DNA of 64,000 nucleotides from an uncultured virus (IMG/VR IMGVR_UViG_3300044612_003086) (IMGVR_UViG_3300044612_003086:1-64000); one strand, 5' to 3'. Counted from the stretch's first letter, positions 2,718 to 30,593 are shown. The notes: generated from the sequence alone by a model not told the origin. Made by a program: numbers and translations.

Positions 2718-2879
2718 CAACTTATCTAGTAAGTAGATACGAGCGAATCGCATGCACTTATCTAGTTCATGTGTATTGACTAGATAAGTACCAGTGGTGA
2801 TACTGACTAGATAAGTACCGAGTGTGATACACGCAATACAAGTAAGCAGAATCATTATCAGCACTTATCTAGTCCTTTC

Positions 2880-3101
2880 TCAAACAATTTCTAAGTCAAG
2901 TTCAGCGAGTGAACTCAACTGCGAAATGAAGTCAATACCTTCGTTCCACAGTAGATTCTCGTAGTCCTCACTTGCTTTCTTTGGTGTGTACGAGCCTGTC
3001 GTAATTTCGTCCAGTATTCCAGTCAAATAATGAATCGCATGTTTCAGGCTGTCTTGCAGTTCGCTCAATGCTTCCTGCACTGCTTCATCGGGTGTGTCCA
3101 C
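2880..3101 (-). CDS. hypothetical protein
   Basis: 73 aa acidic ORF; AAAGGA RBS, GTG start overlapping the 11-mer. Confidence 0.7.
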   Translation of the reverse strand: MDTPDEAVQEALSELQDSLKHAIHYLTGILDEITTGSYTPKKASEDYENLLWNEGIDFISQLSSLAELDLEIV

Positions 3102-3139
3102 TTATCTAGTCCTTTCACTTATCTAGTAGGTATTGGGAG

Positions 3140-3293
3140 TGCCTAGCCCTCTCGTAGAGCGTTAGAAACGGAAAGTGTATCGCTTGGTATTCAGAGCGAC
3201 ACACGCTCGCCGAGAGAGCGTAGGCAAGTCGTACACGGTTCTCCCCAACTGTGTACGCCAAGAGTGGGGGCTGGCTCTCACCAACCCCCACCC
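3140..3293 (-). ncRNA. candidate structured RNA (three consecutive hairpins)
   Basis: Long imperfect stem 3140-3226 plus hairpins 3230-3257 and 3262-3293; most mismatches become G-U pairs on the minus strand. Confidence 0.45.
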
Positions 3294-3311
3294 GAGGACT
3301 TATCTAGTCAC

Positions 3312-4853
3312 TCAAGCGAGTGGGATTTTGCCCATGTGTCTGCGCCACACATCACGGAACATCGCTGGATAGACACTCCGTGCCGTTCCACCGTTGCTCA
3401 ATGACTTGAGTTGCTTTATCGCTTCCTCAACATGAGGAACAACGATGTAGTTGTTCTTGCGAGCGTAGGTGAGACACTGCATAGCGAGTGAATCGTGGAA
3501 ACTGTCGTTCACGCCACACACTCCACCGTCTGTTACCCAAACAAGAGGAGTGCGAGAATCTTTGCGATTCTTTACGCCCCACTGAATTGCTGGATAGTCC
3601 ACGCCGTTGCCGTGTCCGTAGTCAATTCCTTCCACTGTCTCAACCATGCGTCCTTTGTCGCCAACGACCCATGCGTTATGACCACGACTACCTCTGTCGG
3701 AGTAGAGCAACACAGTAGCCCCAGGGGCATGCTCAATAATTTCGGCAATTTGTTCTGTCGTGAACGACATAGAACCACTTGCGTCAATAACGACCATGCC
3801 ACCACTGCCACGCACCTTTCGGTCAAACACTCGCATAGCAGGGTCGGTCATCATGCGTTGCATACGGCGAGGTCTGCGACCTGCGTTTGTTGCAATACGC
3901 TTCTTACCGATACCACCTTTGCTGTAGCGAGGCATTGGCATACGCTCAAGACGAAGTTCGCCCCATTTCGGAGTGCCAGTGGTGATAGCAGACGGAGTTA
4001 TGTCCTTGAGTGGATTTCCGTCCTTGTCGCCTTCACCTTCCTTGCCTTCACCTTCGTTGCTGTGGGCTTTGGACTTATCTAGTGAGTTACCTTCGCCCTC
4101 GCCACCAGCCTTGCTCTTGCTCGGCTTTGGTTGCTTCCGTTCCTTTGGTGGTGGGAACGAAGCGAGCCTGTCCACCCACTCGGCGAGTTGTTCCGTGTAG
4201 GTGAATCCGAACGGCGCAAGTCCGTTGTGAACTGTCGTGTTAGCCAAGTGACCAGTGCGATGAGCCTTCTTCATCTCACGCACGGCTCGCTTGCCAATGT
4301 CTAGCAGTTGGTCGCCCCATGCACGATTCACTCTGCGAACGCCGTTGAGAAATTGCTTGTGTCCAGCACTTCCAGCAGTTCCAACGCACATAGCAACTGC
4401 CATTGCCCAGTCGTTAGTTTCTGCGCAACGCTGTCCACTTGCGAGTTCGCTTCCGTCAGCAAGGTGTTTCTTTACATCTATCCCTGCCTGTTGGCAGAGA
4501 AAGTTCACACGAAGTTCCTCAACGACAGTGAGTGCTGTAGCCGAAGCCATTTCACGCTTGACCCACTCTGCCATTTGTGCCGAATCAGGCGACACCTTTG
4601 CGTGCATGAGTTCGTGCGCACGAATCGCCCGAGCCTTGTCGTCATTGTCCGTTGGTGCGAACATGATTTTGTTAGTCACATCGGTCATTGGCTCGCCACG
4701 CACGGCTTGGCAGTGTTCTACTGTCCAAACTCCGTGTGCTTGGTCACGCCGACCGAGAAGGGTTGCCTCGGCTTTGGCGTTACCCCGAGTGGACTTATCT
4801 AGTCCACTCGGGAACGCCTTGCCAGCAACATGCTTGCCAGCAGGTTGAGACAT
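3312..4853 (-). CDS. HExxH metallopeptidase-like + vWA (MIDAS) domain protein, partner of the adjacent AAA+ ATPase
   Basis: HELMH, VVIDASGSM and VWVTDG motifs; low-complexity linker; overlaps the AAA gene stop. Confidence 0.8.
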   Translation of the reverse strand: MSQPAGKHVAGKAFPSGLDKSTRGNAKAEATLLGRRDQAHGVWTVEHCQAVRGEPMTDVTNKIMFAPTDNDDKARAIRAHELMHAKVSPDSAQMAEWVKREMASATALTVVEELRVNFLCQQAGIDVKKHLADGSELASGQRCAETNDWAMAVAMCVGTAGSAGHKQFLNGVRRVNRAWGDQLLDIGKRAVREMKKAHRTGHLANTTVHNGLAPFGFTYTEQLAEWVDRLASFPPPKERKQPKPSKSKAGGEGEGNSLDKSKAHSNEGEGKEGEGDKDGNPLKDITPSAITTGTPKWGELRLERMPMPRYSKGGIGKKRIATNAGRRPRRMQRMMTDPAMRVFDRKVRGSGGMVVIDASGSMSFTTEQIAEIIEHAPGATVLLYSDRGSRGHNAWVVGDKGRMVETVEGIDYGHGNGVDYPAIQWGVKNRKDSRTPLVWVTDGGVCGVNDSFHDSLAMQCLTYARKNNYIVVPHVEEAIKQLKSLSNGGTARSVYPAMFRDVWRRHMGKIPLA

Positions 4854-5581: not shown

Positions 5582-5888
5582 TGGTATTTCTCCGTTTCTA
5601 GTAGTTGGGTTGGTTGTCGTGTACCACTGTAGCGACCCGACAGCAGATTTATCTCGCCACTTATCTAGTTAGTTCATACCACTTATCTAGTCAGTCCACT
5701 TATCTAGTTAGTTTCACTCGGACACTTATCTAGTTAGTTCCAGCCACTCGGTAATCGTTCGGCAACTTGCACCCGACCACCCCGTGCCTCGCCAACTTAC
5801 ACCCGACCACCCCGAGCCTCGCTTCCTTTGGAAGCCCCGCGGACTTATCTAGTTAGATACAGAATTATTAGATTTTTGACTTATCTAG

Positions 5889-6368
5889 TTAGTCAGGTCG
5901 CTTGGCGATAGAGATTCGGTACAAGCCACGCTTGACCTTGATGAACTCTGGAGTTTCGTTCACGAACCCGAGTGTCGTCTGATACGAGAATCCACACTGC
6001 TCAACCAGTTGCTCGGTGGTGAACTCTTTACCGTCTTGGGTCTTTGCCCACTCCATAAACGCACCCCATTTGTCCTTGCGTTTTTCAGGCTTCTGCATTG
6101 CTTCCCTCTGGACTTCCTTGCCACAGTATGTCTGAATAATGTGGTCGGCGATGTGGGGAAGCACGGAGTAAGAGTTCAGGTAAGAAAGCACATTTTTGCT
6201 TCCACCTTCCCTTTGCCATAATTGCAGTACATGTAGCCCACGAATCAGTTCGCTGGCATTGGACGCTTGTTCTTTGGGAATCCGATACATCGTTCCGAAT
6301 TCTTTTTCCATTTCCTTCCACATCTCTTTGTGGATTCCGTCAATGAATTCATCAGTCAGTTTTTTCAT
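5889..6368 (-). CDS. hypothetical protein, possible C-terminal winged HTH
   Basis: 159 aa; AAAGG RBS; own promoter element at 6414-6441. Confidence 0.7.
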   Translation of the reverse strand: MKKLTDEFIDGIHKEMWKEMEKEFGTMYRIPKEQASNASELIRGLHVLQLWQREGGSKNVLSYLNSYSVLPHIADHIIQTYCGKEVQREAMQKPEKRKDKWGAFMEWAKTQDGKEFTTEQLVEQCGFSYQTTLGFVNETPEFIKVKRGLYRISIAKRPD

Positions 6369-6732
6369 GGCTACCTTTCTAGCGGAACTTTATCCCGACT
6401 TGCCCGTCACTCCAGATTATCTTTTGGTAGGCAGACTTATCTGGTACGGCAACGCAAGAAAGTTATTTTTTTGACCACCTGACATCGAGGGCACTTCCTT
6501 TCCACCACCGTCAATTAGATTCACCACCCCCCGGGAATTAAATTTGTCAAATTTTTCATTTTTTTGCACGTTCTGGCGGCCGGCTGCGGCGGCTCTGGAT
6601 TTCTGGATTTTTTGGCAGCGAAACGCGGGGCTTACATGGTGAATCGGGTGCATAAAGAAAGAGGGTGGGTTTGACCCCACCCCCTGACTTATCTAGTTAG
6701 TTATCGGACTTATCTAGTAACTAGATAAGTGG

Positions 6733-7131: not shown

Positions 7132-7280
7132 TTCACTTCCTCTTTCTGTTTGTCGTTGGTTATTAGCGAACGCAGGTCAAGCAACATGTCGGTCATTTCC
7201 GATGAAGCAACTAAGTCTCTGCCCGAGCAGTGACGAATCATTGTGTCCACCAGTTCGGTTGCTGTAAGTGTTTGGGTCAC
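7128..7280 (-). CDS. small hypothetical protein (50 aa, not in ORF track)
   Basis: GTG start in the 11-mer after AAGGGA; stop overlaps the next ATG (ATGA). Confidence 0.6.
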   Translation of the reverse strand: MTQTLTATELVDTMIRHCSGRDLVASSEMTDMLLDLRSLITNDKQKEEVK

Positions 7281-7284
7281 TTAT

Positions 7285-7989
7285 CTAGTTCCCTTCTTTG
7301 TCGTTGTCGGCTTCGGTGAGCAAGGTGTGAAACGCCTTTGCCTTTATTGCCATTTTCAGGTATGAAATCGTCTGAAGCATGGCATTGGTGAAACGAGCCT
7401 CAGCCATTTCGCTGTTCTCATCTGTCAGGTGAACAATGTCAGTGTCCACATCATCAAACATCGGTACACCTTGGTCGTCATAGGTGTAGGTGCTTGCGCT
7501 CATGTAAATCTTGTCCTGTTCCCAGTCCACGCCACTTACTACAAGACCCTCACGAACATCGGTGAAAGGGTTGTTTTGGAACTCATCTTTCAGCGATTCT
7601 CTTTCACTGTCACGGTCGGCTGGAGTCGTCAGGTCTGTGAAGCGACGCATGTAACCCTCAACAGCAACAAAGATGAAGTTCACTGGTGCTGTAGGCAAGT
7701 GACCAACAGCGTCAATGTAAGCGTCGTATGGGTCGCCTTTGTGAATCAGTGGAAGCATGGCAACATCGTATTGGCGTTCCAAGCCCAACTGCTTTGTGTA
7801 TTGACTTGCTGATTCAGCCAATTCATCATCTGTATCATCAGACTGGTGAATACGACCAATGATGAGCATTGGTGGGGTGTCGCTCATCGCAACCTCTTTG
7901 CACATTTCTTTTTTTGCATACTTGTTTCGGCGCATTACATCGCCGAGAATCTTTAGTATGTCGTTTGAGATTACTTGCTGTTCGCTCAT
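7285..7989 (-). CDS. hypothetical protein
   Basis: 234 aa, AAGGAG RBS, promoter element at 8020-8047; stop TAG supplied by the 11-mer. Confidence 0.75.
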   Translation of the reverse strand: MSEQQVISNDILKILGDVMRRNKYAKKEMCKEVAMSDTPPMLIIGRIHQSDDTDDELAESASQYTKQLGLERQYDVAMLPLIHKGDPYDAYIDAVGHLPTAPVNFIFVAVEGYMRRFTDLTTPADRDSERESLKDEFQNNPFTDVREGLVVSGVDWEQDKIYMSASTYTYDDQGVPMFDDVDTDIVHLTDENSEMAEARFTNAMLQTISYLKMAIKAKAFHTLLTEADNDKEGN

Positions 7990-8096
7990 GGCGTTTCTCC
8001 TTTGGTGGTAAGTACCAACACTGTATCTATTAGTAAGCAGACTTATCTAGTGAGTATGGGTGGGGTGTCCACTCCCCACCCATTTCACATCAGGCA

Positions 8097-8321
8097 TTAT
8101 TTTGCAATAATGTCTTGGGCGTTCACTTTCATCGCTTCGCACAACAATAGAAATGTCGTCATGCTTGGCGAGAAATGTCCGTTCTCAATGCGATTCACCG
8201 TTTTACGGTCAATGCCAGCCTTATTCGCCAGCGTTTCTTGTGACCACTCACGCTCAAGTCTTTCGTTCTTGAGTCGCTCTGCGATTCGCATTGTCTTTTT
8301 CTCAATGGCTGTAAGTGCCAT
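8097..8321 (-). CDS. XRE/Cro-family HTH transcriptional regulator
   Basis: WSQETLANKAGIDRKTVNRIENGHFSPS; AAGGAG RBS. Confidence 0.9.
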   Translation of the reverse strand: MALTAIEKKTMRIAERLKNERLEREWSQETLANKAGIDRKTVNRIENGHFSPSMTTFLLLCEAMKVNAQDIIAK

Positions 8322-8355: not shown

Positions 8356-9123
8356 TTAGGACTTATCTAGTAAGTAATCGTCATACTGACTGAACGATAG
8401 TTTCTCCTTTCGCCTCTGATTAGAACGAATCCACGACACGATGAGTTGCATCGCCTTGTCGCACGAATCAACCATTTCATCGTCACGGTTTGCTCGCCAC
8501 TCACTCTGTGCTTCCCAGTATTCGTCCATTTGTTCATCGGTATCTTGGGGCATGCCCTCTATCTCCGAATCCATTTCGGTTACACCTTCGCCCTCAACAA
8601 TGAGTTCGCCATTGTGGATTACAACCCAACCAGCAAAGAACTCGGCTTCTTCCGTGAACACGACACCGAATACAAGTTTCGGGAACTGCTTTGAGATACG
8701 AGCGATAAGACCGTTACACGGCGACCATGCTGACTGGTAATACATTGAGACAGAACCCTTGTTGTAGTCGTCATCAGATACGCCAACATCACCTGCGCCC
8801 CACTTGCTTCCCCATACGGCGTTGGCATAGTCGTACCAGTCCTTGTAGCCGTACTTATCTAGGTTGTCTTGCATTTGCTTTTTGTGTTCAGCCTGTTTGT
8901 CCTCGGGAACTGAACCCGAAACCGTGTTCATCAACGCCTCGGGAATCGGGTCAAGGTGGTTGAGTGAATCAACTTCTACTTCTTTTTCACCAGTGGCTAC
9001 CCATTTGCCGTCTTGGATTTCTCCAGTCTTTTGCAATTCCTTTATCTTGAGTGATTTCAGGAATCGCTTGAGTTCAGGTTTCGGACCTGACACCTTCATT
9101 GTGTTACTGCACCAGTTTGGCAT
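8356..9123 (-). CDS. DUF1281/YubB-like ferredoxin-fold protein
   Basis: MPNWCSN start, WYDY...WGSKW, YQSAWSP motifs; AAAGGG RBS. Confidence 0.75.
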   Translation of the reverse strand: MPNWCSNTMKVSGPKPELKRFLKSLKIKELQKTGEIQDGKWVATGEKEVEVDSLNHLDPIPEALMNTVSGSVPEDKQAEHKKQMQDNLDKYGYKDWYDYANAVWGSKWGAGDVGVSDDDYNKGSVSMYYQSAWSPCNGLIARISKQFPKLVFGVVFTEEAEFFAGWVVIHNGELIVEGEGVTEMDSEIEGMPQDTDEQMDEYWEAQSEWRANRDDEMVDSCDKAMQLIVSWIRSNQRRKEKLSFSQYDDYLLDKS

Positions 9124-9401
9124 GCTCGCCCTTTCGTCTAGTAGTGGTACGACCCACTCTAGCCCCACACCAGCAGATTTATCAACCTGACTTATCTAGT
9201 CAGCATGTTCTTCCACCACCGTCAATGTCTTGATGTGTTCTCAACCCGACCCGACTTTCACCCGACCCACCCGTGAGCCGACCCAACTTCTTGCCGACCA
9301 CCCCGAACCAGCCCCACCCCATCACTTACCGTGTAAGCCCCGCGTCCCACTGTTTAGCCGGGGCTCAAAGGGTCGAGCTGGTTTAATTTGGTTGGACTTA
9401 T

Positions 9402-9731
9402 CTAGTCAGTAATGATTTCGTCTGCGTAAACGAGTTGTGTTTCGCTGACACGCCAGCCGTTCTGATGGTCCGTCCATGCGTACTTGATAAGTGCCGTCCA
9501 CTTATCTAGGTAGTCATAAATCTCATCATCGGGAATCCCATAGTCGTCAAAATACGAAGTGTCGTTCGGGTCTGGCGAGAAAGAGAAATAGACAAATGAG
9601 CGACCCTCTGGAAACTCCACTCTGCACTTGCTGCCGATGAGAATCAGACCACGAGCCTTTATTGCGAGCATGGTCAGAAAGAGCCGAATCGTAACCCATA
9701 GGGGAACGAAGAACTTATCTAGTAGGTTCAT
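9402..9731 (-). CDS. hypothetical protein
   Basis: 109 aa, overlaps upstream gene; stop inside the 11-mer. Confidence 0.6.
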   Translation of the reverse strand: MNLLDKFFVPLWVTIRLFLTMLAIKARGLILIGSKCRVEFPEGRSFVYFSFSPDPNDTSYFDDYGIPDDEIYDYLDKWTALIKYAWTDHQNGWRVSETQLVYADEIITD

Positions 9732-9957: not shown

Positions 9958-10223
9958 TTCTCTCCTTTCACGGAAACAGTAGTCCGTACCACCCCAGTTT
10001 CGGTAGCAGAAACCACGACTGGAGTCAGCACCTTGTATGCGTTTATCCAGTACTTAGACCGTTCAGCAGACCTGACCCATTTCGCCCTTTCTTCATCGGT
10101 CATGTATTCCCACTCATCGGGCATTTCATTGGTGGGGATACTCCACTCCTCAATTATTTCTTCTTCTTCGTGTTTCACAATTTGTGCGCTCGCACGGACT
10201 GTGATGTGAACATGGGCAGTCAC
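9948..10223 (-). CDS. hypothetical protein
   Basis: 91 aa; AAAGGA RBS + GTG start in the 11-mer. Confidence 0.65.
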   Translation of the reverse strand: MTAHVHITVRASAQIVKHEEEEIIEEWSIPTNEMPDEWEYMTDEERAKWVRSAERSKYWINAYKVLTPVVVSATETGVVRTTVSVKGEKWF

Positions 10224-10236
10224 TTATCTAGTCCTT

Positions 10237-10737: not shown

Positions 10738-11073
10738 TTTCTTCCCCTTTGGTTTAGTAGGTGATTACACGATACATGTGTACGAGCAGACTTATCTAGT
10801 AATCCTTTCCACCACCGTCAAACAGTTAGAGCCAGCAAACGACATTCCCCCGACACGCCCGAACTTTGCGCACTTTTCCCCGACCACCCCCGTTGCTCGC
10901 AAAAAAATCCATTTTTTATCACTTCCCGTGTGAGCCCCGGCTCATGGTCGGGGCGCGGGGCTTCCATCGTCGGAAGCGAACTTATCTAGTAAGTATTCGG
11001 GTCGGCACTTATCTAGTAAGTATCCAGCCAGCCCGACCCACCGTTGGCAAGTGGGTCAGACTGACTAGATAAG

Positions 11074-11385
11074 TCACTCGGCTTCGGCGATACCAGCCCT
11101 GCCCTCGTAGCCACGAACAGCGTTAGAGATTTGCCCGTAATAGTCACCGTTCTCGCAGTACCAGCCTTCGGGTCGTGCGATGAGTGTCCACACCACGAAC
11201 GGCGAGTAGGTGTCGTTCGGCAAGTGGCACAGCACTGTCCACGAAGCGTACAGACCGTCACCAGCGACATTACGCAAGTGATACGCAAGCACCAAACCGT
11301 CATTGGCGTTAGTAAGCACCAGCCCCACTTTGGGGGCTGGTGACTTATCTAGTGAGTTGATGTGGTGAATAGTTGCTTCACTCAT
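11074..11385 (-). CDS. hypothetical protein
   Basis: ATG overlapping the end of the upstream gene. Confidence 0.6.
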   Translation of the reverse strand: MSEATIHHINSLDKSPAPKVGLVLTNANDGLVLAYHLRNVAGDGLYASWTVLCHLPNDTYSPFVVWTLIARPEGWYCENGDYYGQISNAVRGYEGRAGIAEAE

Positions 11386-11848: not shown

Positions 11849-11943
11849 TGTTCTACCCCCTTCGGGTCTAGGTATTTATTACGATTTCATCGTAATAGTG
11901 GGTGGGCAGACTTATCTAGTAAGTCCACCCACCCACTGAACGA

Positions 11944-12354
11944 CTAAGCGACTTTGCTCGCCTTGCTTGCTGGCTTGACTGCGCCCTTCGCTGGCTTCAC
12001 CAGCACTCGGACATAGTTCGTGATTTCCACGACTGACTTGATTACCTTGTTTGGTATTTCGCCCTTGTCCACTGCGCTATCCCACGCCTTCGTGTCCACG
12101 CTTGGCTTCGTCACCTTACGGAACAGAGCAGGACTGACTGACTTGCGCAACTTATCTAGTGAGAAAGACCTGCGCTCGCTCGGCGTGACCGAGAGAGTGA
12201 TTTCGTCTTGCGTGAAGTCGTTGATGCCGTTCTCGGCGAACACTGCGACAAGAGTTTCTCTTGCCACTTCGTGCGCCTGCTCGGCTTGTTCTTTCGCTGT
12301 GAGAGCGTTTAGGAACGCTTCCACTGCTTGCTTGACTTGGGTTTCTGTAGCCAT
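11944..12354 (-). CDS. hypothetical protein
   Basis: AAGGAG RBS before MATETQ; promoter element at 12395-12422. Confidence 0.75.
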   Translation of the reverse strand: MATETQVKQAVEAFLNALTAKEQAEQAHEVARETLVAVFAENGINDFTQDEITLSVTPSERRSFSLDKLRKSVSPALFRKVTKPSVDTKAWDSAVDKGEIPNKVIKSVVEITNYVRVLVKPAKGAVKPASKASKVA

Positions 12355-12721
12355 TGGTTTAGTCTCCTTTGTGTTGGGTGGTGGCTTGCGCACCACCCTA
12401 CACCCGTGAGAGCAGATTTACCAACATCGCTAGACAGATTTCTGAACTTGCCCCCGACACGCCCGATTTCCACTTGCCCCCGACCACCCCGTGCGCCCAT
12501 TATTCTTGCCCTATGCGCCCTTTCCTTGTAAGCCCCGGCAGCCAGCCCTTCCAACGGGGCTCAGAAGGTTGGATAGAGGAAAGGCTGGCACTTATCTATG
12601 AAATGACAGCCGAAGCGAACAGACTGATAGCAATAGCCGAAGCAAGCAACGCCGAAGCGAAAGCCCTGCTCGCTCGTAGTCGCTTCTCGCTCGTCAGGGA
12701 CTTATCTAGTTAGATAAGTGA

Positions 12722-13211: not shown

Positions 13212-13534
13212 TATTGCTCTCCTTGTTCGGGGTCTAGTTGGTATCCGAACACCACCCACGCTACGAACACGACAGCAGACTTATCTCCACTTATCTAGTC
13301 AGTTCAGTTTCCTTTCCACCACCGTCAATAAGTTGAGGACAGATGTTGGTCGCCGTTTCTTTCAGCGCAAACTTTCGCCCGACCACCCCGAAGCGCACTC
13401 ACTTCGCTTCACTCGCCTGCTTACCGTGTAAGCCCCGTGGTTTTTTGTTTTATTGAGCGAAGCGGGGCTCAAACCGTTGAGTGAGTGTTTGGCAACTTAT
13501 CTAGTGAGTGTGTGTGGACTTCGGACTTATCTAG

Positions 13535-13834
13535 TTAGTTATCGTCTATCGGCAGGTCTATCGCCTGTCCTGCGTGTATAGTCGTGCCGTACTTATCTAC
13601 TAAGTAATCGGCAACCTGCGTGATTTCGCCAGTACACTCTGTCTCTGCGATACTCCATAGCGTGTCACCCTCTCTAACGATTATCGTTGCTTCCGAGCAA
13701 GCGTAATCGGGCTGATTTGCTGTGTGAGTGGCAAGCAACGCAATGATAATAACTGCGATTATTGCGAACGCTCTGAACTTACGAGCAAGCATACGGTAGT
13801 GCTGGTCATACTTATCTAGTTCATTATTTCTCAT
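13535..13834 (-). CDS. membrane-anchored LysM domain protein
   Basis: TM segment then IIVREGDTLWSIA...IHAGQAIDLP. Confidence 0.8.
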   Translation of the reverse strand: MRNNELDKYDQHYRMLARKFRAFAIIAVIIIALLATHTANQPDYACSEATIIVREGDTLWSIAETECTGEITQVADYLVDKYGTTIHAGQAIDLPIDDN

Positions 13835-14095
13835 CAGTAACCCCCTGTATTTGGTTTCTCCAACTCTAACTCGTATCGGGCAGATTTATCTGACTTTCTC
13901 CCGACCACCCCGACGCTCCAATAAACGCAATAAACGCAACGCTACGCAGGGAGCCCCGGCTCCTCGCAGGCCGTGCTCGCCACCATGCTCGCAGGACTTA
14001 TCTAGTTAGATAGATAAGTGTCGGCAATGGAATAAGCCCGACACACTCTCGCAAGTATGTCGGGCTCGTCCGTGTCGGATGAGACGTGCTAGGTA

Positions 14096-18582: not shown

Positions 18583-18596
18583 ACTAACTAGATAAG

Positions 18597-20042: not shown

Positions 20043-20116
20043 CTAGATAAGTGTCCAGATAAATCTGCTCGTCATTTATTACCATTATTAGTACCTACTA
20101 CCGAAAAGGGGAAAAT

Positions 20117-20539: not shown

Positions 20540-20558
20540 ACTAGATAAGTAATGAAAG

Positions 20559-20598
20559 ACCCACTTATCTAGTGAATAACTAGGTGAGTGGGTTTTTT
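20559..20598 (+). terminator. intrinsic terminator whose stem contains the 11-mer
   Basis: ACCCACTTATCTAGT-GAATA-ACTAGGTGAGTGGGT followed by a T-run. Confidence 0.7.
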
Positions 20599-20778
20599 CG
20601 TATGCGTAACTAACTAGATAAGTGCATTGAGTTGGTTACTGCTACCGCAGCCCCGCCTTTCGTCGGTTTTTATGACATTGACTTATCTAGTAAATAGAAA
20701 AGCCCCCATCAGTTCCTGCGAGGACCGATGGGGGCGATTCGTACTGGGTGGAAATCGGGGGAAATCACCCAGCGAGCT

Positions 20779-22183: not shown

Positions 22184-22489
22184 ATGTCTCGCCTGCGAAT
22201 AGAAAGAACAGAGATGTCTCAAATCGGTGAGCCCTCACAGCCTTCGTCAAAGGCGAAGACAAGCACAATCAGCTTCGACGAGTGGCTCCACATCGGTCTA
22301 GAAAATGACTGGTGTGGACCACCCGTATGCTCAATACATGACGGTATCCCAATGAGCGAAGCTGAAGAAGAGGAATTTCAGGAAGGTGACCCGTGTGTGC
22401 ACATCATTCGTTTGTACGAAGATGAAGAGCAAAAGAAGTTGGTAGAAGACTTCCACTCGCCATCCAATTGGCGTAAACCACTTATCTAG
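22184..22489 (+). CDS. hypothetical protein
   Basis: WCGPPVCSIHDGIP...DPCVHIIRLY; stop TAG inside an 11-mer. Confidence 0.7.
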   Translation: MSRLRIERTEMSQIGEPSQPSSKAKTSTISFDEWLHIGLENDWCGPPVCSIHDGIPMSEAEEEEFQEGDPCVHIIRLYEDEEQKKLVEDFHSPSNWRKPLI

Positions 22490-22666
22490 TTAAGTTCACC
22501 CACAGCACTTATAACGGCCACGACGAGGTGGTCTTTGGCTTGTTTTGGCTTCTGATACAGGAACAGCACGACGAGTGAAATTTGGTGCTTCTGTTTCCTG
22601 CTCTTGTTTTTTCTTTTTAGCCATACCCTATTTTCTCATAGGGAAGCAGCTCTATGGTGGAAGCGC

Positions 22667-22873: not shown

Positions 22874-22879
22874 AATCTA

Positions 22880-27012: not shown

Positions 27013-27291
27013 ATGAAGTTACTAGATAAGTGCGAAAACTGGTGTCAGGAACATTATCTCGGAACGATGAAGGCTCTGCTCGGCATTATCTCTGCCGTGC
27101 CGACTATCGGACTGTTCGGAGTGGTTCAGGCGTACTACAACAGCAACATCGGCGACCTGCTGACCTGTTTGTTCATCGTGGTAGGTGGAACGGTGATTAC
27201 CACCCTATTCGCTCTGACCGTGTACAACGAACATCAAGACGAACGCTACGGCTCTATTCGCCGTCACCCAGTCACGAAGCGAGTGCGCTAA
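27013..27291 (+). CDS. hypothetical membrane protein
   Basis: Two TM segments; AAGGGG RBS; promoter element at 26949-26976. Confidence 0.7.
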   Translation: MKLLDKCENWCQEHYLGTMKALLGIISAVPTIGLFGVVQAYYNSNIGDLLTCLFIVVGGTVITTLFALTVYNEHQDERYGSIRRHPVTKRVR

Positions 27292-27992
27292 TGACTACGA
27301 CAGCACTGGACACCCGTAGCGTGTTAGCAGAAATGCTAACAGAAAACACTGGAACGCACATCTTGGACAGTGGTGGCGCATACGGCAGGAACTGGGAACG
27401 AAACAATGGCAAGACGCTTGCCGATTTTGAGAACGAACCGACTGCGTGGGCTGACGGTTATGGCGTAGTGCTTTCAGTTTTTCACTTTCTTGCGAACCGT
27501 GTGGAGTTTCTGCCGAGTATCCAAGCCGAGTTAGATGATTTGGCACGGTGTATGCCTGATGAGGGCTGGTTGGCTATCGCCGAGACACTGGCTGAACGCT
27601 ACGACCCTAAGCCTCGTACTTGGAACACTTACAACGGCGAGGACAGTCTTTCGCAAACACTACAAGGCGTATCGTTCACCCGTAATGACGGTGAGACTGT
27701 GAGCCTTATTCAGATACACGGGGGCTGTGATGTTCGTGGTGGATACACGAAGCCTCGTGCTTTCCGTGTGACGGTGGAAATGGCTGACTGTTTCCCATAC
27801 GACCACAACTCTTATGAGTTGGAGTGTCCGACTGATAACGAACACTCTCTCTCGTATTTGGGTGAGTACATCGGTTGGCACGGGTCAAGCATTGACGCTG
27901 ATGAGTATCCGACATACGACAGCGAGAAGCGAACAGCGAACTGTGTGAAGTGTGGTTCGCCATTCATCGTTCACGCCTCTGAACCGTACTAG
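27291..27992 (+). CDS. hypothetical protein
   Basis: TAATG coupling; MLTENTGTHILDSGGAYGRNW, IHGGCDVRGGYT; stop inside the 11-mer. Confidence 0.75.
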   Translation: MTTTALDTRSVLAEMLTENTGTHILDSGGAYGRNWERNNGKTLADFENEPTAWADGYGVVLSVFHFLANRVEFLPSIQAELDDLARCMPDEGWLAIAETLAERYDPKPRTWNTYNGEDSLSQTLQGVSFTRNDGETVSLIQIHGGCDVRGGYTKPRAFRVTVEMADCFPYDHNSYELECPTDNEHSLSYLGEYIGWHGSSIDADEYPTYDSEKRTANCVKCGSPFIVHASEPY

Positions 27993-28225
27993 ATAAGTCT
28001 CAACGGTCACCCGTAGCCTCTGCGCTCTTATCCCCAACCCCCTTTCATCAAGGGCGTAGGGGTTACGGGGTTTCACTTATCTAGTGAGCATTACTCTGCT
28101 ACGGCGAGACTATGACTTACTAGATAAGTGTTCATCACAAGTGAGGGCAAAGTGCGAAGCACTGCGCCAGCCGGGGCTCCGAGCGTTTGAGTGTGGTTTG
28201 TGTTGTAACTAGATAAGATGATGAG

Positions 28226-28558: not shown

Positions 28559-28567
28559 TGAACTTAT

Positions 28568-28771
28568 CTAGTTCAGTATCTGTCCAACACTGACAACGAA
28601 AACTTCTCCACAGTAAAGCACACGGGCGTACTGTTTATCTGTGTCGTGGTATGAGATGAACTCTGCTTCCACAGCACCCGTAGTCATTCGGCGTGCCTTG
28701 TCTGAAACGATGTGACCGAACGACACTGGTATCAACAGCGTCTGACCTACGGTAAGTCCTTTGGTAATCAC
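28568..28771 (-). CDS. hypothetical protein
   Basis: 67 aa; start overlaps upstream stop; stop inside the 11-mer. Confidence 0.5.
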   Translation of the reverse strand: MITKGLTVGQTLLIPVSFGHIVSDKARRMTTGAVEAEFISYHDTDKQYARVLYCGEVFVVSVGQILN

Positions 28772-28956
28772 TAGATGCCGTATGTTCCGAGTTGAGTGCG
28801 CTCTGCTTGGCGCAAGACTTCGTAGATTTCGGAAACATGCGCTTCCGTGTGTTCATCATCAGCGAACAACCTGACTATCTGTAAGACACACTCCAAGCGA
28901 GCAACCTGCTGTGCCGTAAGTGTGATAGTGAGTTCTGCGTTTCGTGCTATTCCCAT
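28771..28956 (-). CDS. hypothetical protein
   Basis: AAGGGG RBS; promoter element at 28978-29005. Confidence 0.6.
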   Translation of the reverse strand: MGIARNAELTITLTAQQVARLECVLQIVRLFADDEHTEAHVSEIYEVLRQAERTQLGTYGI

Positions 28957-29004
28957 TGTGTTCCCCTTTCGGTATTGACCTTAGGGTAGGGCGAGCAGAC
29001 TTAT

Positions 29005-29412
29005 CTATTTACTATCTGTGACATCACGCCACTGACCATCAACGACCACCTGATAGTGCGCCCCCGACACTGGCACGAGTTCGCCATTAGCATTGCGTTC
29101 ATACTTGCCGAAGTTCTCAGTGGAACGCCATGCCCACTCACAGCACGGTGTTTCACTATCGCAGGGGTGTGTCCCCTTACCTATCGTCTCTGCCAATGCT
29201 GGGAACAGAGTAAGGAACTTCACTATGCAGTCGTGACACAGTATCCAACTACGGCTACGGCGATTACTAAACAGTACATCTACCTCATCAGTGAAGCCAC
29301 CATAGTAACCAAATAGGTCAAATGGTAAATCCCAACCGTTACTAGGTAGGTGCTTTTGTTCATCGCACTGGACATCGTAGTCACAACCTGAACAGCGAAC
29401 ATGGTTACTCAT
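29005..29412 (-). CDS. hypothetical Cys-rich protein
   Basis: CSGC...CHDC; promoter element at 29422-29449. Confidence 0.65.
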   Translation of the reverse strand: MSNHVRCSGCDYDVQCDEQKHLPSNGWDLPFDLFGYYGGFTDEVDVLFSNRRSRSWILCHDCIVKFLTLFPALAETIGKGTHPCDSETPCCEWAWRSTENFGKYERNANGELVPVSGAHYQVVVDGQWRDVTDSK

Positions 29413-29474
29413 AACATCTCAACGATAGTCGTATGCGAGCAGACTTATCTAGTACCCGTAGCACTTGGCGACTT

Positions 29475-29888
29475 CTATGACTGGCGTGTGTTGAGGCGAA
29501 GGTAGGCAGAGTAGGCGTAGTTGCGTTGGCGTTGGCGTTCGGCGTGTGCCCTCTCTGCGTCTGCTGGGGGCATACGGTCTATCTCATCATCAGTGGGTGC
29601 GAAGCCTATCTCCCTCTCTGCTTCTAGCATCAGTGACACAAGGCTAAGCGTGTGGGTGTCTGCGTACTCACCCGTAGCGATGTGGCAACCTTGTTCATCT
29701 AAGTCAAGTGCCAACAGTTCGCTTGCTACCTTTGAGATGAATACACCTGTGAGTTTCATCTGCGACAGGCGTTGGTGTGTGGTCAGGTGTTCGTTCGCTG
29801 TCCTCTTAGACCGAAGCAACTGTGTGTACATACTGTTGCTTGGAACGAAAGCGACAAACTCTGATGGGGTTGGCTCTTGTGTTGTCAT
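29475..29888 (-). CDS. hypothetical protein
   Basis: 137 aa ORF. Confidence 0.6.
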   Translation of the reverse strand: MTTQEPTPSEFVAFVPSNSMYTQLLRSKRTANEHLTTHQRLSQMKLTGVFISKVASELLALDLDEQGCHIATGEYADTHTLSLVSLMLEAEREIGFAPTDDEIDRMPPADAERAHAERQRQRNYAYSAYLRLNTRQS

Positions 29889-30593
29889 CTCATCTCTCTC
29901 TTGTGTTTGTGTGTGTCGTGTGTATGCGATGTGTATGAGCGAGGCTCTGCGTGGCTAAGCCCACACCAGACCCGAAACCCGACAGACCCGACAGTGCTGT
30001 TGGTTTTGTTGGCGTGTCGTGTTGCGTGTTGGATTACATCGGGTGTGTGGTCTCTCTCTCGGCGTGTGTCTTACTGAAACACTTGGATAAATCGTCTTGC
30101 TGTTTTTTGGGGTGTCGTATTCGGGTCGTGACTTATCTAGTGAGTTGTGTCGTTTTGTAATCAGCCAGAAACCATCGGCACACACTGCGAGAGACTGCTG
30201 TGTGTCCTCTGCGTGTGTGGACTTGTTGCCGACTACCCCGAGTACCGACACAAATTGCGAAAAATTGTTCGCAGTGTCGCCTCGCAGCACCTGTCTCTTG
30301 TAGCCCCGCGAAACTTTCTCGGTTGAGGCAGGGTGGGTGGGGGAGCAAAATCGCAAAAAATTCATCCCAGGTTTTTCACTTAAATTTATCCAATGCATAC
30401 AGCTCGGCCGCCAGTTTGCGGACTTTCTTCCAGTGTCTTGATTGTCTCCCATTTGCCCCCAGACAGCATGGGATGAGCCCTGTGAAGGACAAATGCATGA
30501 ATGCCCTGTCTTCGTATGCTTCAATCACGTCCGGTGAATCCGAGTACAAAGCGTCCTGTGTTTCTTTCACGGTTCAAGCGTATACTGAAATTC

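What the first reader, a model, noticed from the sequence alone, without database searches (positions are those of the whole stretch)
2720..30141. About 69 exact copies of an oriented 11-mer (ACTAGATAAGT) saturating the accessory region
Seen: about 69 exact copies lie in 27.4 kb and I saw none in the other ~36 kb. The chance expectation for a given 11-mer in this window is far below 1. Copies inside or at the ends of genes nearly always read ACTAGATAAGT on the sense strand and flip where genes flip (18530, 19577, 20042, 20540, 27021, 27988). The motif supplies stop codons (7285, 9402, 15196, 18534, 27992, 28568). It sits between RBS and GTG start (3101, 7280, 10223). It is also embedded in-frame as CTA-GAT-AAG (Leu-Asp-Lys) in unrelated proteins (4073, 4793, 8361, 9713, 11343, 12150, 13810, 19577, 27021). 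Established: cluster A mycobacteriophages such as L5 use tens of asymmetric, transcription-oriented repressor sites (stoperators). Inference: this is a dense binding-site network for one protein that silences, organises or protects a whole genome domain, apparently in a different type of phage.
Basis: partly seen in the sequence, partly recalled or inferred. Interest (0 to 1): 0.92.

Follow-up and report, generated by a model that had tools for sequence, protein, structure and literature searches.

The report
Oriented 11-mer network in actinophage
A large uncultured phage of actinobacteria marks its block of small early genes with 69 identical, direction-sensitive copies of an 11-base word that also sits on the promoters of those genes, which most resembles the repressor "stoperator" networks known only from much smaller temperate phages.

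Summary
ACTAGATAAGT occurs 69 times (18 +, 51 -) between 2720 and 30141. It occurs nowhere else in the 133,891-bp virus record (chance expectation 0.04).

The record is an uncultured ~150-kb myovirus with WhiB genes, so probably an actinobacterial phage.

- **Selection:** 60 of 61 aligned sites are unchanged in a relative at 91-96% identity. 7 of 10 and 8 of 12 are unchanged in relatives at 65-77%.
- **Lineage variants:** more distant relatives carry their own variant in tens of copies (GG-, AA- or AG-TAGATAAGT, TGTAGGTAAGT and others).
- **Orientation:** copies inside genes are all on the sense strand (8 of 8). About 48 of 58 copies with a defined local direction point with transcription.
- **Promoter link (new here):** 9 copies overlap the -35 region of a promoter (motif-CTG-N12-TAnnnT). 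Another 4 lie 9-12 nt upstream of one.

Best reading (about 0.5): a binding-site network for an unidentified sequence-specific phage protein. It would act as operator at early promoters and as an orientation-dependent block or insulator at gene boundaries.

No binder could be named. All eight DNA-binding candidates examined have recognition elements that do not change with the motif variant. No lysogeny genes were found.

Verdict: a new variant of a known kind, real and interesting, with the mechanism unproven.

The parts
2720..30141 (.). Whole cluster: 69 exact copies of ACTAGATAAGT (M) in 27.4 kb of small genes of unknown function. The extended consensus is aACTnACTAGATAAGT(C/G).
1999..2373 (+). 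Candidate binder c1 (124 aa): an N-terminal HA domain, a flexible linker and a C-terminal sigma-70 region-4-like HTH. It lies just outside the cluster. Its recognition helix is invariant across motif variants.
2374..2879 (.). About 500 bp, probably non-coding, holding 5 copies in mixed orientation. ORF 2406-2864 scores poorly as coding and is not conserved as a protein.
2720..2730 (-). M, in the non-coding hub
2756..2766 (-). M, in the hub; back-to-back with 2779
2779..2789 (+). M, in the hub; points against the neighbouring - strand genes
2806..2816 (+). M, in the hub; points against the neighbouring - strand genes
2863..2873 (-). M in an aaagg-M-G cassette, 6 nt after the end of gene 2880-3101
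3100..3110 (-). M between the ribosome-binding site (gaaagg) and the GTG start of gene 2880-3101
3117..3127 (-). M at the 3' end of ORF 3115-3291, in frame
3298..3308 (-). M 3 nt after the stop of gene 3312-4853; lies in a hairpin loop (-14.2 kcal/mol)
4073..4083 (-). M inside gene 3312-4853, in frame (Leu-Asp-Lys). The position is kept in G002, and other lineages carry their own variant there (Ile/Val-Asp/Gly-Lys).
4793..4803 (-). M inside gene 3312-4853, in frame, in the loop of a strong hairpin (-21.7 kcal/mol); position kept in relatives
5659..5669 (-). M 11 nt upstream of promoter box AGATAAATCTGC, with -10 TACAGT at 5626-5631; drives operon 4853-5581/3312-4853
5681..5691 (-). M, in the tandem array upstream of that promoter
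5698..5708 (-). M, in the tandem array
5724..5734 (-). M, in the tandem array
5843..5853 (-). M between genes, 35 nt after gene 5889-6368, before a GC hairpin
5879..5889 (-). M abutting the stop of gene 5889-6368
5889..6368 (-). Candidate binder p5889 (159 aa): a helical N-terminal domain and a C-terminal winged helix (AlphaFold2 pLDDT 88). The helix GFSYQTTL is invariant across motif variants.
6687..6697 (-). M directly before a terminator-like hairpin with a T run (6660-6685)
6708..6718 (-). M; back-to-back with 6720, 1 nt apart
6720..6730 (+). M between genes, pointing against local transcription
7279..7289 (-). M that supplies the stop of gene 7285-7989 and also lies between the ribosome-binding site and the GTG start of 7128-7280
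8041..8051 (-). M overlapping the -35 region of a promoter; -10 TACAGT at 8020-8025
8097..8321 (-). Candidate binder c2 (74 aa), a Cro/XRE-type HTH_3 protein; its recognition helix is conserved across motif variants
8361..8371 (-). M in frame, 5 nt before the stop of gene 8356-9123
9190..9200 (-). M 12 nt upstream of promoter box; -35 TTGATA, 18-nt spacer, -10 TAGAGT at 9156-9161
9396..9406 (-). M that supplies the stop of gene 9402-9671/9731
9713..9723 (-). M at the end of gene 9715-9957 (inside the longest form of ORF 9402-9731)
10222..10232 (-). M between the ribosome-binding site and the GTG start of 9948-10223
10790..10800 (-). M overlapping the -35 region; -10 TATCGT at 10769-10774; TTGACGGTGGTGGAA lies upstream
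10980..10990 (-). M between genes, before a GC hairpin
11007..11017 (-). M between genes
11064..11074 (+). M pointing against local transcription, between genes
11343..11353 (-). M 25 nt after the stop of gene 11378-11848 (inside doubtful ORF 11074-11427); a hairpin follows
11910..11920 (-). M overlapping the -35 region (-10 TACGAT at 11889-11894) and lying in a hairpin loop (-21.9 kcal/mol)
12150..12160 (-). M inside gene 11944-12354, in frame
12700..12710 (-). M between genes, preceded by a partial inverted copy
13289..13299 (-). M 9 nt upstream of promoter box AGATAAGTCTGC; -10 TAGCGT at 13258-13263
13495..13505 (-). M between genes, before a GC hairpin
13525..13535 (-). M abutting the stop of gene 13535-13834
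13810..13820 (-). M in frame, 14 nt inside gene 13535-13834
13996..14006 (-). M between genes, preceded by a partial inverted copy
14453..14463 (-). M abutting the stop of 14463-14744 and overlapping the -35 region; -10 TATCGT at 14432-14437
15079..15089 (+). M pointing against local transcription; faces a 12-bp-stem hairpin from the far side
15116..15126 (+). M pointing against local transcription, before the same hairpin; a positional counterpart exists in G001
15190..15200 (-). M that supplies the stop of gene 15196-15636; the hairpin follows
15693..15703 (-). M overlapping the -35 region; -10 TATCGT at 15672-15677
15712..15722 (-). M that supplies the stop of ORF 15718-16005
16073..16083 (+). 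M pointing against local transcription, between genes
16085..16095 (+). M pointing against local transcription, 1 nt after the previous copy
16131..16141 (+). M pointing against local transcription; a counterpart exists in G001
16819..16829 (-). M 3 nt after the stop of 16833-17315, overlapping the -35 region; -10 TACCAT at 16798-16803
17367..17377 (-). M overlapping the -35 region; -10 TATGCT at 17346-17351
17405..17415 (-). M 27 nt upstream of the copy at 17367
18530..18540 (+). M that supplies the stop of + strand gene ..18534; a hairpin follows
18587..18597 (+). M after that hairpin, at a convergent gene junction
19119..19129 (-). M overlapping the -35 region; -10 TACGAT at 19098-19103; drives 18597-19058
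19149..19159 (-). M 19 nt upstream of the copy at 19119
19577..19587 (+). M inside + strand gene ..20042, in frame
20042..20052 (+). M abutting the stop of ..20042 and 11 nt upstream of promoter box; -10 TACCAT at 20080-20085
20540..20550 (+). M directly after the stop of 20117-20539
20563..20573 (-). M forming part of the stem of a hairpin followed by a T run
20613..20623 (+). M between genes; it and 20681 face each other
20681..20691 (-). M between genes; it and 20613 face each other
22480..22490 (-). M overlapping the end of + strand gene 22184-22489, antisense to it
27021..27031 (+). M directly before the GTG start of 27030-27992
27988..27998 (+). M that supplies the stop of 27030-27992; a hairpin follows
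28075..28085 (-). M facing the same hairpin from the other side
28119..28129 (+). M between genes, 96 nt before 28226-28558
28562..28572 (-). M that supplies the stop of - strand ORF 28568-28687
29443..29453 (-). M overlapping the -35 region; -10 TATCGT at 29422-29427
30131..30141 (-). M in frame in ORF 29955-30524, whose coding status is uncertain

Best explanation
The 11-mer (really a 12-16-mer, aACTnACTAGATAAGT followed by C or G) is the recognition site of one sequence-specific DNA-binding protein, most probably phage-encoded and binding as a monomer. It governs the block of small, presumably early, genes.

At about 13 of roughly 17 early promoters the site lies on or just upstream of the -35 region. 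The -35 hexamer TAGATA is inside the word, followed by an 18-nt spacer and a -10 TAnnnT. A bound protein would therefore control initiation by host RNA polymerase.

The other ~55 copies sit at gene ends, between ribosome-binding site and start codon, inside genes and before hairpins, mostly pointing with transcription. There a bound protein would act as an orientation-dependent block or insulator of elongation. The whole 27-kb domain could then be shut down together, for example at the switch from early to middle genes.

Shown here: the copy number, exactness, orientation, purifying selection, the promoter overlap and the lineage-specific variants. Inferred: that a protein binds, that the effect is repression, and that these genes are early.
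For: - **Copy number and exactness:** 69 exact copies against 0.04 expected, confined to 2720-30141 of 133,891 bp. Only 11 one-mismatch variants lie in the cluster.
- **Purifying selection:** 60 of 61 aligned sites are identical in G005 (91-96% identity). 7 of 10 are identical in G001 and 8 of 12 in G002 (65-77% identity). The neutral expectation I computed is about 0.45 and 0.03 respectively.
- **Variants with a shared core:** each lineage has its own variant in tens of copies, all sharing the core GATAAGT. The 5' dinucleotide is therefore part of what is read: 69 of 76 TAGATAAGT cores in this record are preceded by AC (count derived).
- **Orientation:** 8 of 8 internal copies are sense, 13 of 16 at stops, 4 of 4 at starts, and 24 of 31 between genes running the same way. 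After counting 7279 once, about 48 of 58 point with transcription.
- **Promoter link:** TAnnnT begins exactly 16 nt after the word in 10 of 69 copies here and 5 of 20 in G001; no other offset exceeds 3. The pattern [TC]CTG-N12-TAnnnT lies on 9 copies and 9-12 nt downstream of 4 more. In lineages B, C, F and G the local variant lies 8-23 nt upstream of the same box; none was found in the one lineage-D locus examined.
- **DNA-level action:** copies pointing against transcription are also conserved (G001 counterparts; G005), which fits action on DNA rather than RNA.
- **Spacing:** spacings within tandem arrays show no helical periodicity (17, 22, 26, 27, 30, 36 nt), which fits independent monomers.
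- **Precedent:** the cluster A and CA stoperator systems share asymmetry, one orientation relative to transcription, positions between genes or on gene ends, an operator at the early promoter, and motif variation between lineages (passages read).
Against: - **No binder identified.** Eight DNA-binding candidates were compared across motif variants: c1, c2, p5889, a MarR-like protein, a ribbon-helix-helix protein with a zinc ribbon, a second such protein, an HTH_38 protein and WhiB2. All have recognition elements that do not change with the variant, and lineages D and F, which differ at two motif positions, are identical there. The column screen found no convincing co-varying residue.
- **No repressor homologue.** Neither c1 nor p5889 hit any cluster A repressor or other phage repressor in the solved-structure sequence search or in the fold searches.
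- **No lysogeny genes.** No integrase or ParA was found in the ORFs scanned.
- **Exceptions to orientation.** 10 of 58 oriented copies point against transcription.
- **Other classes.** Three copies sit in strong hairpin loops, and five sit between ribosome-binding site and start, which an RNA-level role would also explain.
- **Ambiguous promoter position.** A site at or just upstream of -35 suits an activator as well as a repressor.
- **No expression data.** The only RNA material was ~200-nt contigs that show no transcript ends.
Confidence: 0.5

Rival explanations
1. Positive control. The word is the docking site of a phage activator or sigma-like specificity factor, for example c1 with its sigma region-4-like helix. 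This factor would recruit host RNA polymerase to the early or delayed-early promoters. Copies away from promoters would be weak internal promoters, reloading sites or decoys.
For: - The word lies on, or 8-23 nt upstream of, the -35 box of the recurrent promoter in five lineages.
- Twelve of 17 promoter boxes in this record have an exact copy on or next to them, and 3 more have a one-mismatch copy (my reading).
- c1 carries a Sigma70_r4-like HTH and models as two domains joined by a linker.
- The concerted change of many promoter-linked sites between lineages recalls the way phage RNA polymerases and their promoters change together in T7-like phages (recalled, not from a call).
Against: - Only 13 of 69 copies have a -10 element at the right distance.
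- Copies between ribosome-binding site and start, inside genes and directly before hairpins are badly placed for promoters.
- No sigma factor, RNA polymerase, MotA or AsiA family was hit among the ORFs scanned.
- c1's helix does not change with the motif variant.
Confidence: 0.17
2. RNA-level signal. ACUAGAUAAGU in early mRNAs is read by a phage RNA-binding protein or endoribonuclease, or by the ribosome. Its job would be to end, couple or silence translation, or to trigger decay of early messages.
For: - All 8 internal copies and most boundary copies are on the sense strand.
- The word carries stops in two frames and is used as a stop 13 times. It also serves as the spacer between ribosome-binding site and GTG 4-5 times.
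- In lineages D, E, F, G and H the variable 5' part looks like a Shine-Dalgarno sequence (GGAG, GGGG, AGGTG, AAAGGA).
- Three copies sit in strong hairpin loops.
Against: - Copies on or upstream of promoters are not in the transcript that starts there, yet this placement is conserved across lineages.
- Ten copies pointing against transcription are conserved.
- Loop presentation is not general: mean -2.98 against -2.91 kcal/mol for 690 random positions, and 9 of 69 against 14% at -6 kcal/mol or lower.
- No Rfam family matches in the cluster.
Confidence: 0.12
3. Nucleation sites for a phage nucleoid-type silencer or organiser. A protein such as p5889 (helical N-terminal domain plus winged helix) would bind the high-affinity words every ~400 bp and then spread or bridge, compacting or shielding the whole domain rather than blocking polymerase site by site.
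For: - The sites are dense and restricted to one domain.
- p5889's architecture is known from a confident model. The best Foldseek row is the DNA-binding domain of the silencer Rok, but weakly (E 0.087, TM 0.43 on the target).
- Pairs of copies about 185-240 bp apart flank several long intergenic regions (coordinates).
Against: - The winged-helix match is generic: Z 6-8 to many unrelated winged helices.
- Spreading silencers need no strict orientation, whereas these sites are oriented.
- p5889's helix does not change with the motif variant.
Confidence: 0.08
4. Boundary sequence for gene shuffling. The repeated word, together with the promoter and hairpin modules, would serve as short homology or as a recombinase site that lets small genes be swapped, deleted or inserted in this variable region.
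For: - Most copies are at gene boundaries, in direct orientation.
- The region is mosaic between relatives, and some alignment blocks end near copies, for example at 16819.
- A promoter plus stem-loop beside each small gene recalls the mobile regulatory cassettes of T4-type phages (recalled, not from a call).
Against: - Eleven bases is short for homologous exchange, and sequences flanking the word are not conserved.
- Gene boundaries and mosaic joints coincide in any case.
- Internal in-frame copies kept at the same codon across lineages are not boundaries.
- No recombinase was found next to the cluster.
- The one DNA joint seen near a copy (6722 to 9251) rests on 24 bases in a single contig.
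Confidence: 0.06

Closest known systems
Repressor-stoperator systems of cluster A mycobacteriophages (L5, Bxb1, TipsytheTRex), cluster CA Rhodococcus phages and Streptomyces phage R4 relatives
   Same: An asymmetric short site in tens of copies, predominantly in one orientation relative to transcription. Sites lie between genes or overlap gene ends, and one class lies on the early promoter. The motif differs between related lineages (passages read). The CA consensus quoted carries a -35 hexamer on its complementary strand, and the word here likewise carries the -35 hexamer of its promoters.
   Different: The known systems are ~50-kb temperate siphoviruses with an identified immunity repressor and an integrase or parABS, and their sites are spread over the whole genome (20-36 copies). 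This is a ~150-kb myovirus with 55-69 copies confined to one ~27-40-kb block. No repressor homologue or lysogeny genes were found. Many promoters rather than one carry the site, and the word is far more exact.
Start-associated sequences (SAS) of cluster K mycobacteriophages
   Same: An asymmetric 13-mer, mostly in one orientation, tied to gene boundaries and conserved across subclusters. Its function is unknown, and a host or phage binder, protein or RNA, has been proposed (passages read).
   Different: SAS lie immediately upstream of start codons almost without exception. Here only 4-5 of 69 copies do; most are at stops, promoters, hairpins or inside genes.
Early-promoter plus stem-loop cassettes in the variable regions of T4-type phages; T4 MotA boxes (both recalled, no paper read)
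   Same: A block of small early genes in which each gene is flanked by a hairpin and a highly conserved promoter, with an extra conserved box in the -30/-35 region.
   Different: Those elements are promoters only. They do not occur inside genes, as stop codons or in 50 extra copies without a -10, and no lineage-specific recoding of the box is known to me.

Membership tests
Repressor-stoperator system (cluster A type) | Asymmetric site of about 13 bp in more than 20 copies per genome | tested here: met
   69 exact copies of an asymmetric 11-mer, extended consensus up to 16-17 nt. Complete relatives hold 55-58 copies of their own variant.
Repressor-stoperator system (cluster A type) | Sites predominantly in one orientation relative to transcription | tested here: met
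   About 48 of 58 copies with a defined local direction are co-oriented, and 8 of 8 internal copies are sense (gene calls).
Repressor-stoperator system (cluster A type) | Sites between genes or overlapping gene ends | tested here: met
   37 between genes, 16 at stops, 4 at starts (one copy, 7279, counted in both) and 8 internal, of 69.
Repressor-stoperator system (cluster A type) | A site acts as operator on the early lytic promoter | tested here: inconclusive
   By sequence, 9 copies overlap the -35 region and 4 lie 9-12 nt upstream of motif-CTG-N12-TAnnnT promoters. Neither promoter activity nor repression was tested.
Repressor-stoperator system (cluster A type) | Immunity repressor with an N-terminal HTH and a C-terminal stoperator domain | tested here: inconclusive
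   No such hit for c1 or p5889 against solved-structure sequences or in the fold searches. Pfam and PHROGs name no repressor. Other proteins were not folded.
Repressor-stoperator system (cluster A type) | Temperate phage with an integrase or parABS | tested here: not met
   No integrase or ParA family hit among the ORFs scanned from the 134-kb record and the extra ~28 kb of G004. Only ParB-N-like proteins were found, next to a PAPS-reductase gene. Unrecognised genes cannot be excluded.
Repressor-stoperator system (cluster A type) | Sites distributed across the whole genome | tested here: not met
   All 69 lie in 27.4 kb of 133.9 kb. Relatives show the same confinement to ~35-40 kb.
Repressor-stoperator system (cluster A type) | Orientation-dependent block of elongation by the bound repressor | not testable with these tools
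   Needs transcription assays.
Start-associated sequences (cluster K) | Site immediately upstream of start codons | tested here: not met
   Only 3100, 7279, 10222 and 27021 (plus 2863 before a doubtful ORF) of 69 copies.
Actinobacterial sigma-A-type promoter | A -10 TAnnnT with a -35-like hexamer 16-18 nt upstream, at a sensible distance from a ribosome-binding site and start | tested here: met
   TAGATA or TTGATA, an 18-nt spacer and TAnnnT. Start codons lie 30-61 nt after the word. An E. coli-type consensus scan is not enriched (13 found against 14.7 expected). The TAnnnT rule itself is recalled, not taken from a call.
Rok-like xenogeneic silencer (for p5889) | Rok-type winged-helix DNA-binding domain | tested here: inconclusive
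   Foldseek top row 5zuz, E 0.087, TM 0.31/0.43. VIA-align gives Z 6-8 to many unrelated winged helices.

The most novel reading that the evidence does not exclude
A previously undescribed kind of gene punctuation in large, apparently lytic actinophages. One exact, direction-sensitive word brackets nearly every early gene. It serves at once as a -35 element, as stop codons, and as the spacer between ribosome-binding site and start. It would be read by a still unknown factor whose specificity has been recoded at least nine times among relatives. Co-infecting lineages would then be transcriptionally incompatible, a lytic-phage counterpart of heteroimmunity.
Probability: 0.25. Interest if true: 0.88.

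Novelty: new variant of a known kind. Interest (0 to 1): 0.72.

Why it matters
Stoperator-type control, in which one protein silences a long stretch of genome through many oriented sites, is so far known only in a few related groups of ~50-kb temperate actinophages. Finding the same sequence logic in a widespread, uncultured group of ~150-kb freshwater phages has several consequences (at least 199 related loci were found in IMG/VR). No lysogeny genes were found in this group, and the network is confined to the early-gene block.

- It would show that domain-wide, orientation-coded control is a more general phage strategy.
- It offers a natural series of at least nine motif variants for studying how a regulator and some 60 sites change specificity together.
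- It provides compact parts for actinobacteria: a promoter, an operator and a directional insulator in 11-30 bp.
- It gives a sequence marker for delimiting the early regions of such phages in metagenomes.

Tried and rejected
- **Artefact or adapter:** rejected. The same word lies at homologous places in five independent records.
- **Near-identical cultured phage:** none found. The closest terminase hits are about 42-44% identical, in Gordonia and Methanothermobacter/Methanobacterium phages.
- **General hairpin-loop presentation:** rejected.
- **"The word precedes hairpins" as a general rule:** only partly true. The mean folding energy of the 60 nt downstream does not differ from random windows (Mann-Whitney p 0.27). 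However, strong hairpins (-20 kcal/mol or lower) follow 15 of 69 copies, against 7% of 600 random windows and 9 of 69 upstream.
- **E. coli-type scans:** no enrichment of promoters (13 against 14.7 expected) or terminators (20 against 17.9).
- **Rfam:** nothing in the cluster, only a tRNA at 31719.
- **RNA evidence:** two freshwater metatranscriptome runs hold small shares (0.07 and 0.05) as ~200-nt contigs, which show no starts, ends or strand. No conclusion was drawn.
- **Binder by co-variation:** alignments of eight DNA-binding candidates across variants and two column screens gave no convincing determinant. The single column in c1 that differs between lineages D and F (residue 63 of the 124-aa form) does not map one-to-one onto motif variants.
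- **ORF 2406-2864 as a gene:** rejected. It has a poor coding score, an odd amino-acid composition and no protein-level relatives outside close strains.
- **Phage RNA polymerase:** no DxDGD-type motif in the giant ORFs; the three weak pattern hits are in other contexts.
- **The motif in print:** a full-text search for TAGATAAGT found 138 papers. The 10 listed are unrelated, and I read none of them.
- **Earlier findings of this scan:** none on this genome.

Full report
**Observation.** ACTAGATAAGT occurs 69 times in the window (18 on +, 51 on -), from 2720 to 30141. Shuffles predict 0.04. The window is the first 64 kb of a 133,891-bp virus record that IMG/VR classes as linear and about 89% complete. 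That record holds the same 69 copies and no others, and the reversed word occurs 0 times. The word is unusually exact. Only 12 one-mismatch variants exist in the record, 11 of them in the cluster, while two-mismatch variants are at background level (41 against 51 for the reversed control). Most one-mismatch variants differ in the first three bases. Flanking positions are also biased: A at -4 (55 of 69), C at -3 (45), T at -2 (51), and C or G at +1 (58). The site is therefore about aACTnACTAGATAAGT(C/G).

**The genome.** PHROGs and Pfam scans of my ORF sets give the following:
- Structural genes: tail sheath, tube and baseplate, portal, large terminase and major head protein.
- Replication and nucleotide genes: ribonucleotide reductase, thymidylate synthase, primase-helicase and single-strand-binding protein.
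- A WhiB-like protein, eight tRNAs and very large ORFs.

A close relative (G004, 153,913 bp, rated complete) supplies about 28 kb missing from this record. That stretch holds tail fibres, a holin, an endolysin, a second WhiB, a MarR-like protein and a ribbon-helix-helix/zinc-ribbon protein. I infer an actinobacterial host from the WhiB genes and the TAnnnT promoters described below. There is no near-identical cultured phage, and the best terminase matches are 42-44% identical. The group is common in IMG/VR, with at least 199 loci related to one of its proteins. Four complete relatives of 151-159 kb have direct terminal repeats.

**Selection and relatives.** The same word is dense in five other records:

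| Record | Size | Copies |
|---|---|---|
| G001 | 13.8 kb | 21 |
| G002 | 11.3 kb | 12 |
| G003 | 34 kb | 69 |
| G004 | 153.9 kb | 42 |
| G005 | 25 kb | 63 |

G003 is identical to this record, G004 is about 98.6% identical and G005 is 91-96% identical. G001 and G002 are only 65-77% identical.

Of the sites that could be aligned, 60 of 61 are unchanged in G005, 7 of 10 in G001 and 8 of 12 in G002. I estimate neutral survival of an 11-mer at about 0.45 and about 0.03 at these divergences. The sites are therefore under strong purifying selection.

Loci around homologues of gene 1999-2373 in more distant relatives each show their own over-represented word:
- **A:** ACTAGATAAGT
- **B:** GGTAGATAAGT
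- **C:** AATAGATAAGT
- **D:** (G)AGTAGATAAGT
- **E:** GGGGTAGATAA(G)T
- **F:** GGTGTAGGTAAGT
- **G:** AAAGGATAATGTAA
- **H:** AGGGGGATAAGT
- **I:** CTAGGATAGTGC

Each occurs 5-34 times per 8-20-kb locus. In complete genomes the local variant occurs 55-58 times and is confined to a ~35-40-kb stretch. The 3' core GATAAGT is shared and the 5' part is lineage-specific.

The variant is honoured even inside a conserved gene. At the site homologous to 4073, lineages A, C, D and F encode Leu-Asp-Lys, Ile-Asp-Lys, Val-Asp-Lys and Val-Gly-Lys, each spelled by its own word.

**Position relative to genes.** A codon-usage model trained on 42 long ORFs puts all credible genes between 2.4 and 17.9 kb on the - strand. 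The + strand ORFs in the first mechanical list are spurious. The census is:

| Class | With transcription | Against |
|---|---|---|
| Inside genes | 8 | 0 |
| At stop codons | 13 | 3 |
| At start codons | 4 | 0 |
| Between genes running the same way | 24 | 7 |

- The three antisense copies at stops all lie at convergent gene ends.
- The four copies at starts lie between the ribosome-binding site and a GTG start; one of them (7279) is also counted among the stops.
- The remaining copies lie in divergent or convergent gaps or in the 2374-2879 non-coding stretch.

Counting 7279 once, about 48 of 58 copies with a defined local direction point with transcription. No antisense copy lies inside a gene, although the antisense word is open in two of three frames and the sense word in only one.

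**Promoters.** Sorting the downstream flanks exposed a class reading word-CTG(C)-N11-TAnnnT, followed 30-45 nt later by a ribosome-binding site and a start. TAnnnT begins exactly 16 nt after the word in 10 of 69 copies here and 5 of 20 in G001; no other offset exceeds 3.

The pattern [TC]CTG-N12-TAnnnT has 49 hits on both strands of the 134-kb record. Thirteen of them have the word within 45 nt upstream: 9 overlapping and 4 at 9-12 nt, where a variant box AGATAA(A/G)TCTGC follows the exact word. The box ATAA[AG]TCTG[CT] occurs 18 times in the record, 17 of them between 5.6 and 29.5 kb.

The -35 hexamer is TAGATA, inside the word (TTGATA at 9185), with an 18-nt spacer. In lineages B, C, F and G the local variant lies 8-23 nt upstream of the same box (by eye). 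No such pair was found in the one lineage-D locus with the exact 11-mer and the 45-nt limit.

**Intergenic layout.** Long gaps follow a common order:
1. A stop codon, with the word on or just after it.
2. A GC-rich hairpin (GAGCCCCG...CGGGGCT).
3. One to four G-rich repeats (GGGGTGGTCGGG...AAGT).
4. The element TTGACGGTGGTGGAA.
5. The word.
6. The promoter box and the -10 hexamer.
7. A leader, a ribosome-binding site and the start codon.

Short gaps use the cassette aaagg-word-G. There the word supplies the stop of the upstream gene, the spacer, and the first two bases (GT) of the GTG start of the next gene. Around several hairpins, copies face inwards from both sides (15190/15116, 27988/28075).

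**Tests of alternatives.**
- Presentation in hairpin loops is not general: mean -2.98 against -2.91 kcal/mol at 690 random positions. Only 11910, 4793 and 3298 are in strong loops.
- Strong hairpins within 60 nt downstream are over-represented (15 of 69 against 7% of random windows), but the mean energy is not different (p 0.27).
- E. coli-type promoter and terminator scans are at shuffle level.
- Rfam finds nothing in the cluster.
- RNA contigs from two freshwater metatranscriptomes are too short to show transcript ends.
- Copies pointing against transcription have counterparts in G001 and are unchanged in G005, which favours a DNA-level role.

**Who reads it?** The DNA-binding candidates are:
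- c1 (1999-2373): an HA domain plus a sigma region-4-like HTH. Its two-domain model has pLDDT 85.
- c2 (8097-8321): a Cro-type HTH.
- p5889: a helical domain plus a winged helix, pLDDT 88. It has only generic winged-helix matches, and the top Foldseek row is the Rok DNA-binding domain at E 0.087.
- A MarR-like protein, two ribbon-helix-helix/zinc-ribbon proteins, an HTH_38 protein and WhiB2.

In every one of these the DNA-reading helix or strand is the same in all motif variants that I could align. Lineages D and F, which differ at two motif positions, are identical there. Two column screens for residues fixed within a variant but different between variants found only scattered columns.

A two-domain monomer could still fit, with a constant helix reading the constant core and a variable second domain reading the variable 5' part. 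The solved cluster A repressor works this way. On that logic c1 and p5889 are the best guesses, but this is not shown.

**Lifestyle.** No integrase, ParA, sigma factor or RNA polymerase family was hit.

**Interpretation.** Several features together are best explained by one sequence-specific DNA-binding protein that controls this block of genes:
- the exactness and the purifying selection;
- the lineage-specific recoding;
- the tie to the -35 region of a family of promoters;
- the larger number of co-oriented copies at gene boundaries;
- the conserved copies that point against transcription.

Such a protein would act as an operator at promoters and as a directional block or insulator elsewhere. 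I put this at about 0.5. An activator or specificity factor (0.17), an RNA-level signal (0.12), nucleation of a spreading silencer (0.08) and a shuffling boundary (0.06) remain possible.

**Comparison with known systems.** The closest known systems are the repressor-stoperator networks of cluster A mycobacteriophages, cluster CA Rhodococcus phages and R4-like Streptomyces phages (passages read). Four defining sequence features are met or met at sequence level. Three are not: a repressor homologue, lysogeny genes and a genome-wide spread of sites. I therefore file this as working like a stoperator network, not as a member of that family. Cluster K start-associated sequences share the asymmetry, the orientation and the unknown reader, but not the positions.

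**Limits.**
- The gene calls are my own heuristic.
- "Early genes" and the host phylum are inferences.
- Supplementary figures of the papers were not read.
- The TAnnnT rule, the T4 cassettes and the T7 analogy are recalled, not taken from a call.

Noticed in passing
window 466-478, 1218-1230, 2387-2401, 6500-6514, 9211-9225, 10807-10821, 13314-13328 (all - strand): A second recurrent element, (TT)GACGGTGGTGGAA: 7 copies of the 13-mer, all on the - strand. Three of them lie 19-23 nt upstream of a copy of the 11-mer at promoters. Unlike the 11-mer it is the same in distant lineages, where it is among the top k-mers of L166, L172, L173, L179, L181 and L189. It starts with a perfect -35-like TTGACG and also resembles a Shine-Dalgarno sequence. 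It could be the target of one of the invariant HTH proteins.
   Followed up: partly
window 5770-5811, 10880-10888, 12480-12488, 13380-13387, 13900-13909, 14850-14857, 17470-17540, 23095 (- strand): G-rich repeats GGGGTGGTCGGG followed by N3-4 and AAGT, one to four per long intergenic region, between the hairpin and the promoter. GGTGGTCGGG occurs 8 times, all on the - strand.
   Followed up: no
window 9342-9366, 10932-10956, 12537-12562, 13437-13470, 13951-13958, 15828-15853, 17552-17600, 17956-17989, 19271-19305, 26873-26880, 28172-28179: Recurrent GC-rich hairpins with arms GAGCCCCG / CGGGGCT(C/T) after many genes, mostly without a T run. They may be actinobacterial-style terminators.
   Followed up: no
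window 6435, 14808, 28999 (- strand): Three promoter boxes carry a one-mismatch form of the word (ACC-, ATT- and AAT-AGATAAGT followed by CTG). These promoters might escape whatever reads the exact word.
   Followed up: no
relatives L178, L175, L166, L183, L182: In lineages D, F, E, H and G the variable 5' part of the local word looks like a Shine-Dalgarno sequence (GGAG, AGGTG, GGGG, AGGGGG, AAAGGA). The word there reads like a complete ribosome-binding site, spacer and GTG/ATG unit with built-in stops. In F and G it contains a start codon directly followed by a stop.
   Followed up: no
G000 74948-83812 and 65789-73165 (outside the window; L010:9-8873, L009:3190-10566): A 2954-aa protein next to the portal gene combines a prohead protease, an ArdC-like N-domain, a zincin peptidase and a UvrD-type helicase. 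A neighbouring 2458-aa ORF has no family hit at all.
   Followed up: no
G000 116950-131442 (outside the window; L012): A run of at least nine paralogous 2OG-Fe(II) oxygenase-like genes on one strand.
   Followed up: no
L249 and L223 (two contigs of 1048 and 554 bp in a Zoogloea oryzae assembly): The 15-base extended pattern occurs twice in a 1-kb contig and once in a 0.5-kb contig of a bacterial draft genome. These may be stray fragments of a phage of this group rather than a prophage.
   Followed up: no
window 6722 to 9251: One contig of DNA run X3 joins 6722 (inside the copy at 6720) to 9251, skipping 2528 bp, but with only 24 bases on the shorter side. Also, a 4-base insertion (TAGA) next to the copy at 12700 is seen in an RNA-library contig.
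   Followed up: no
G004 140476-140486 (+), L157 4477-4487: The complete relative has one isolated copy of the word about 280 nt upstream of its second WhiB gene, in the part missing from this record.
   Followed up: no
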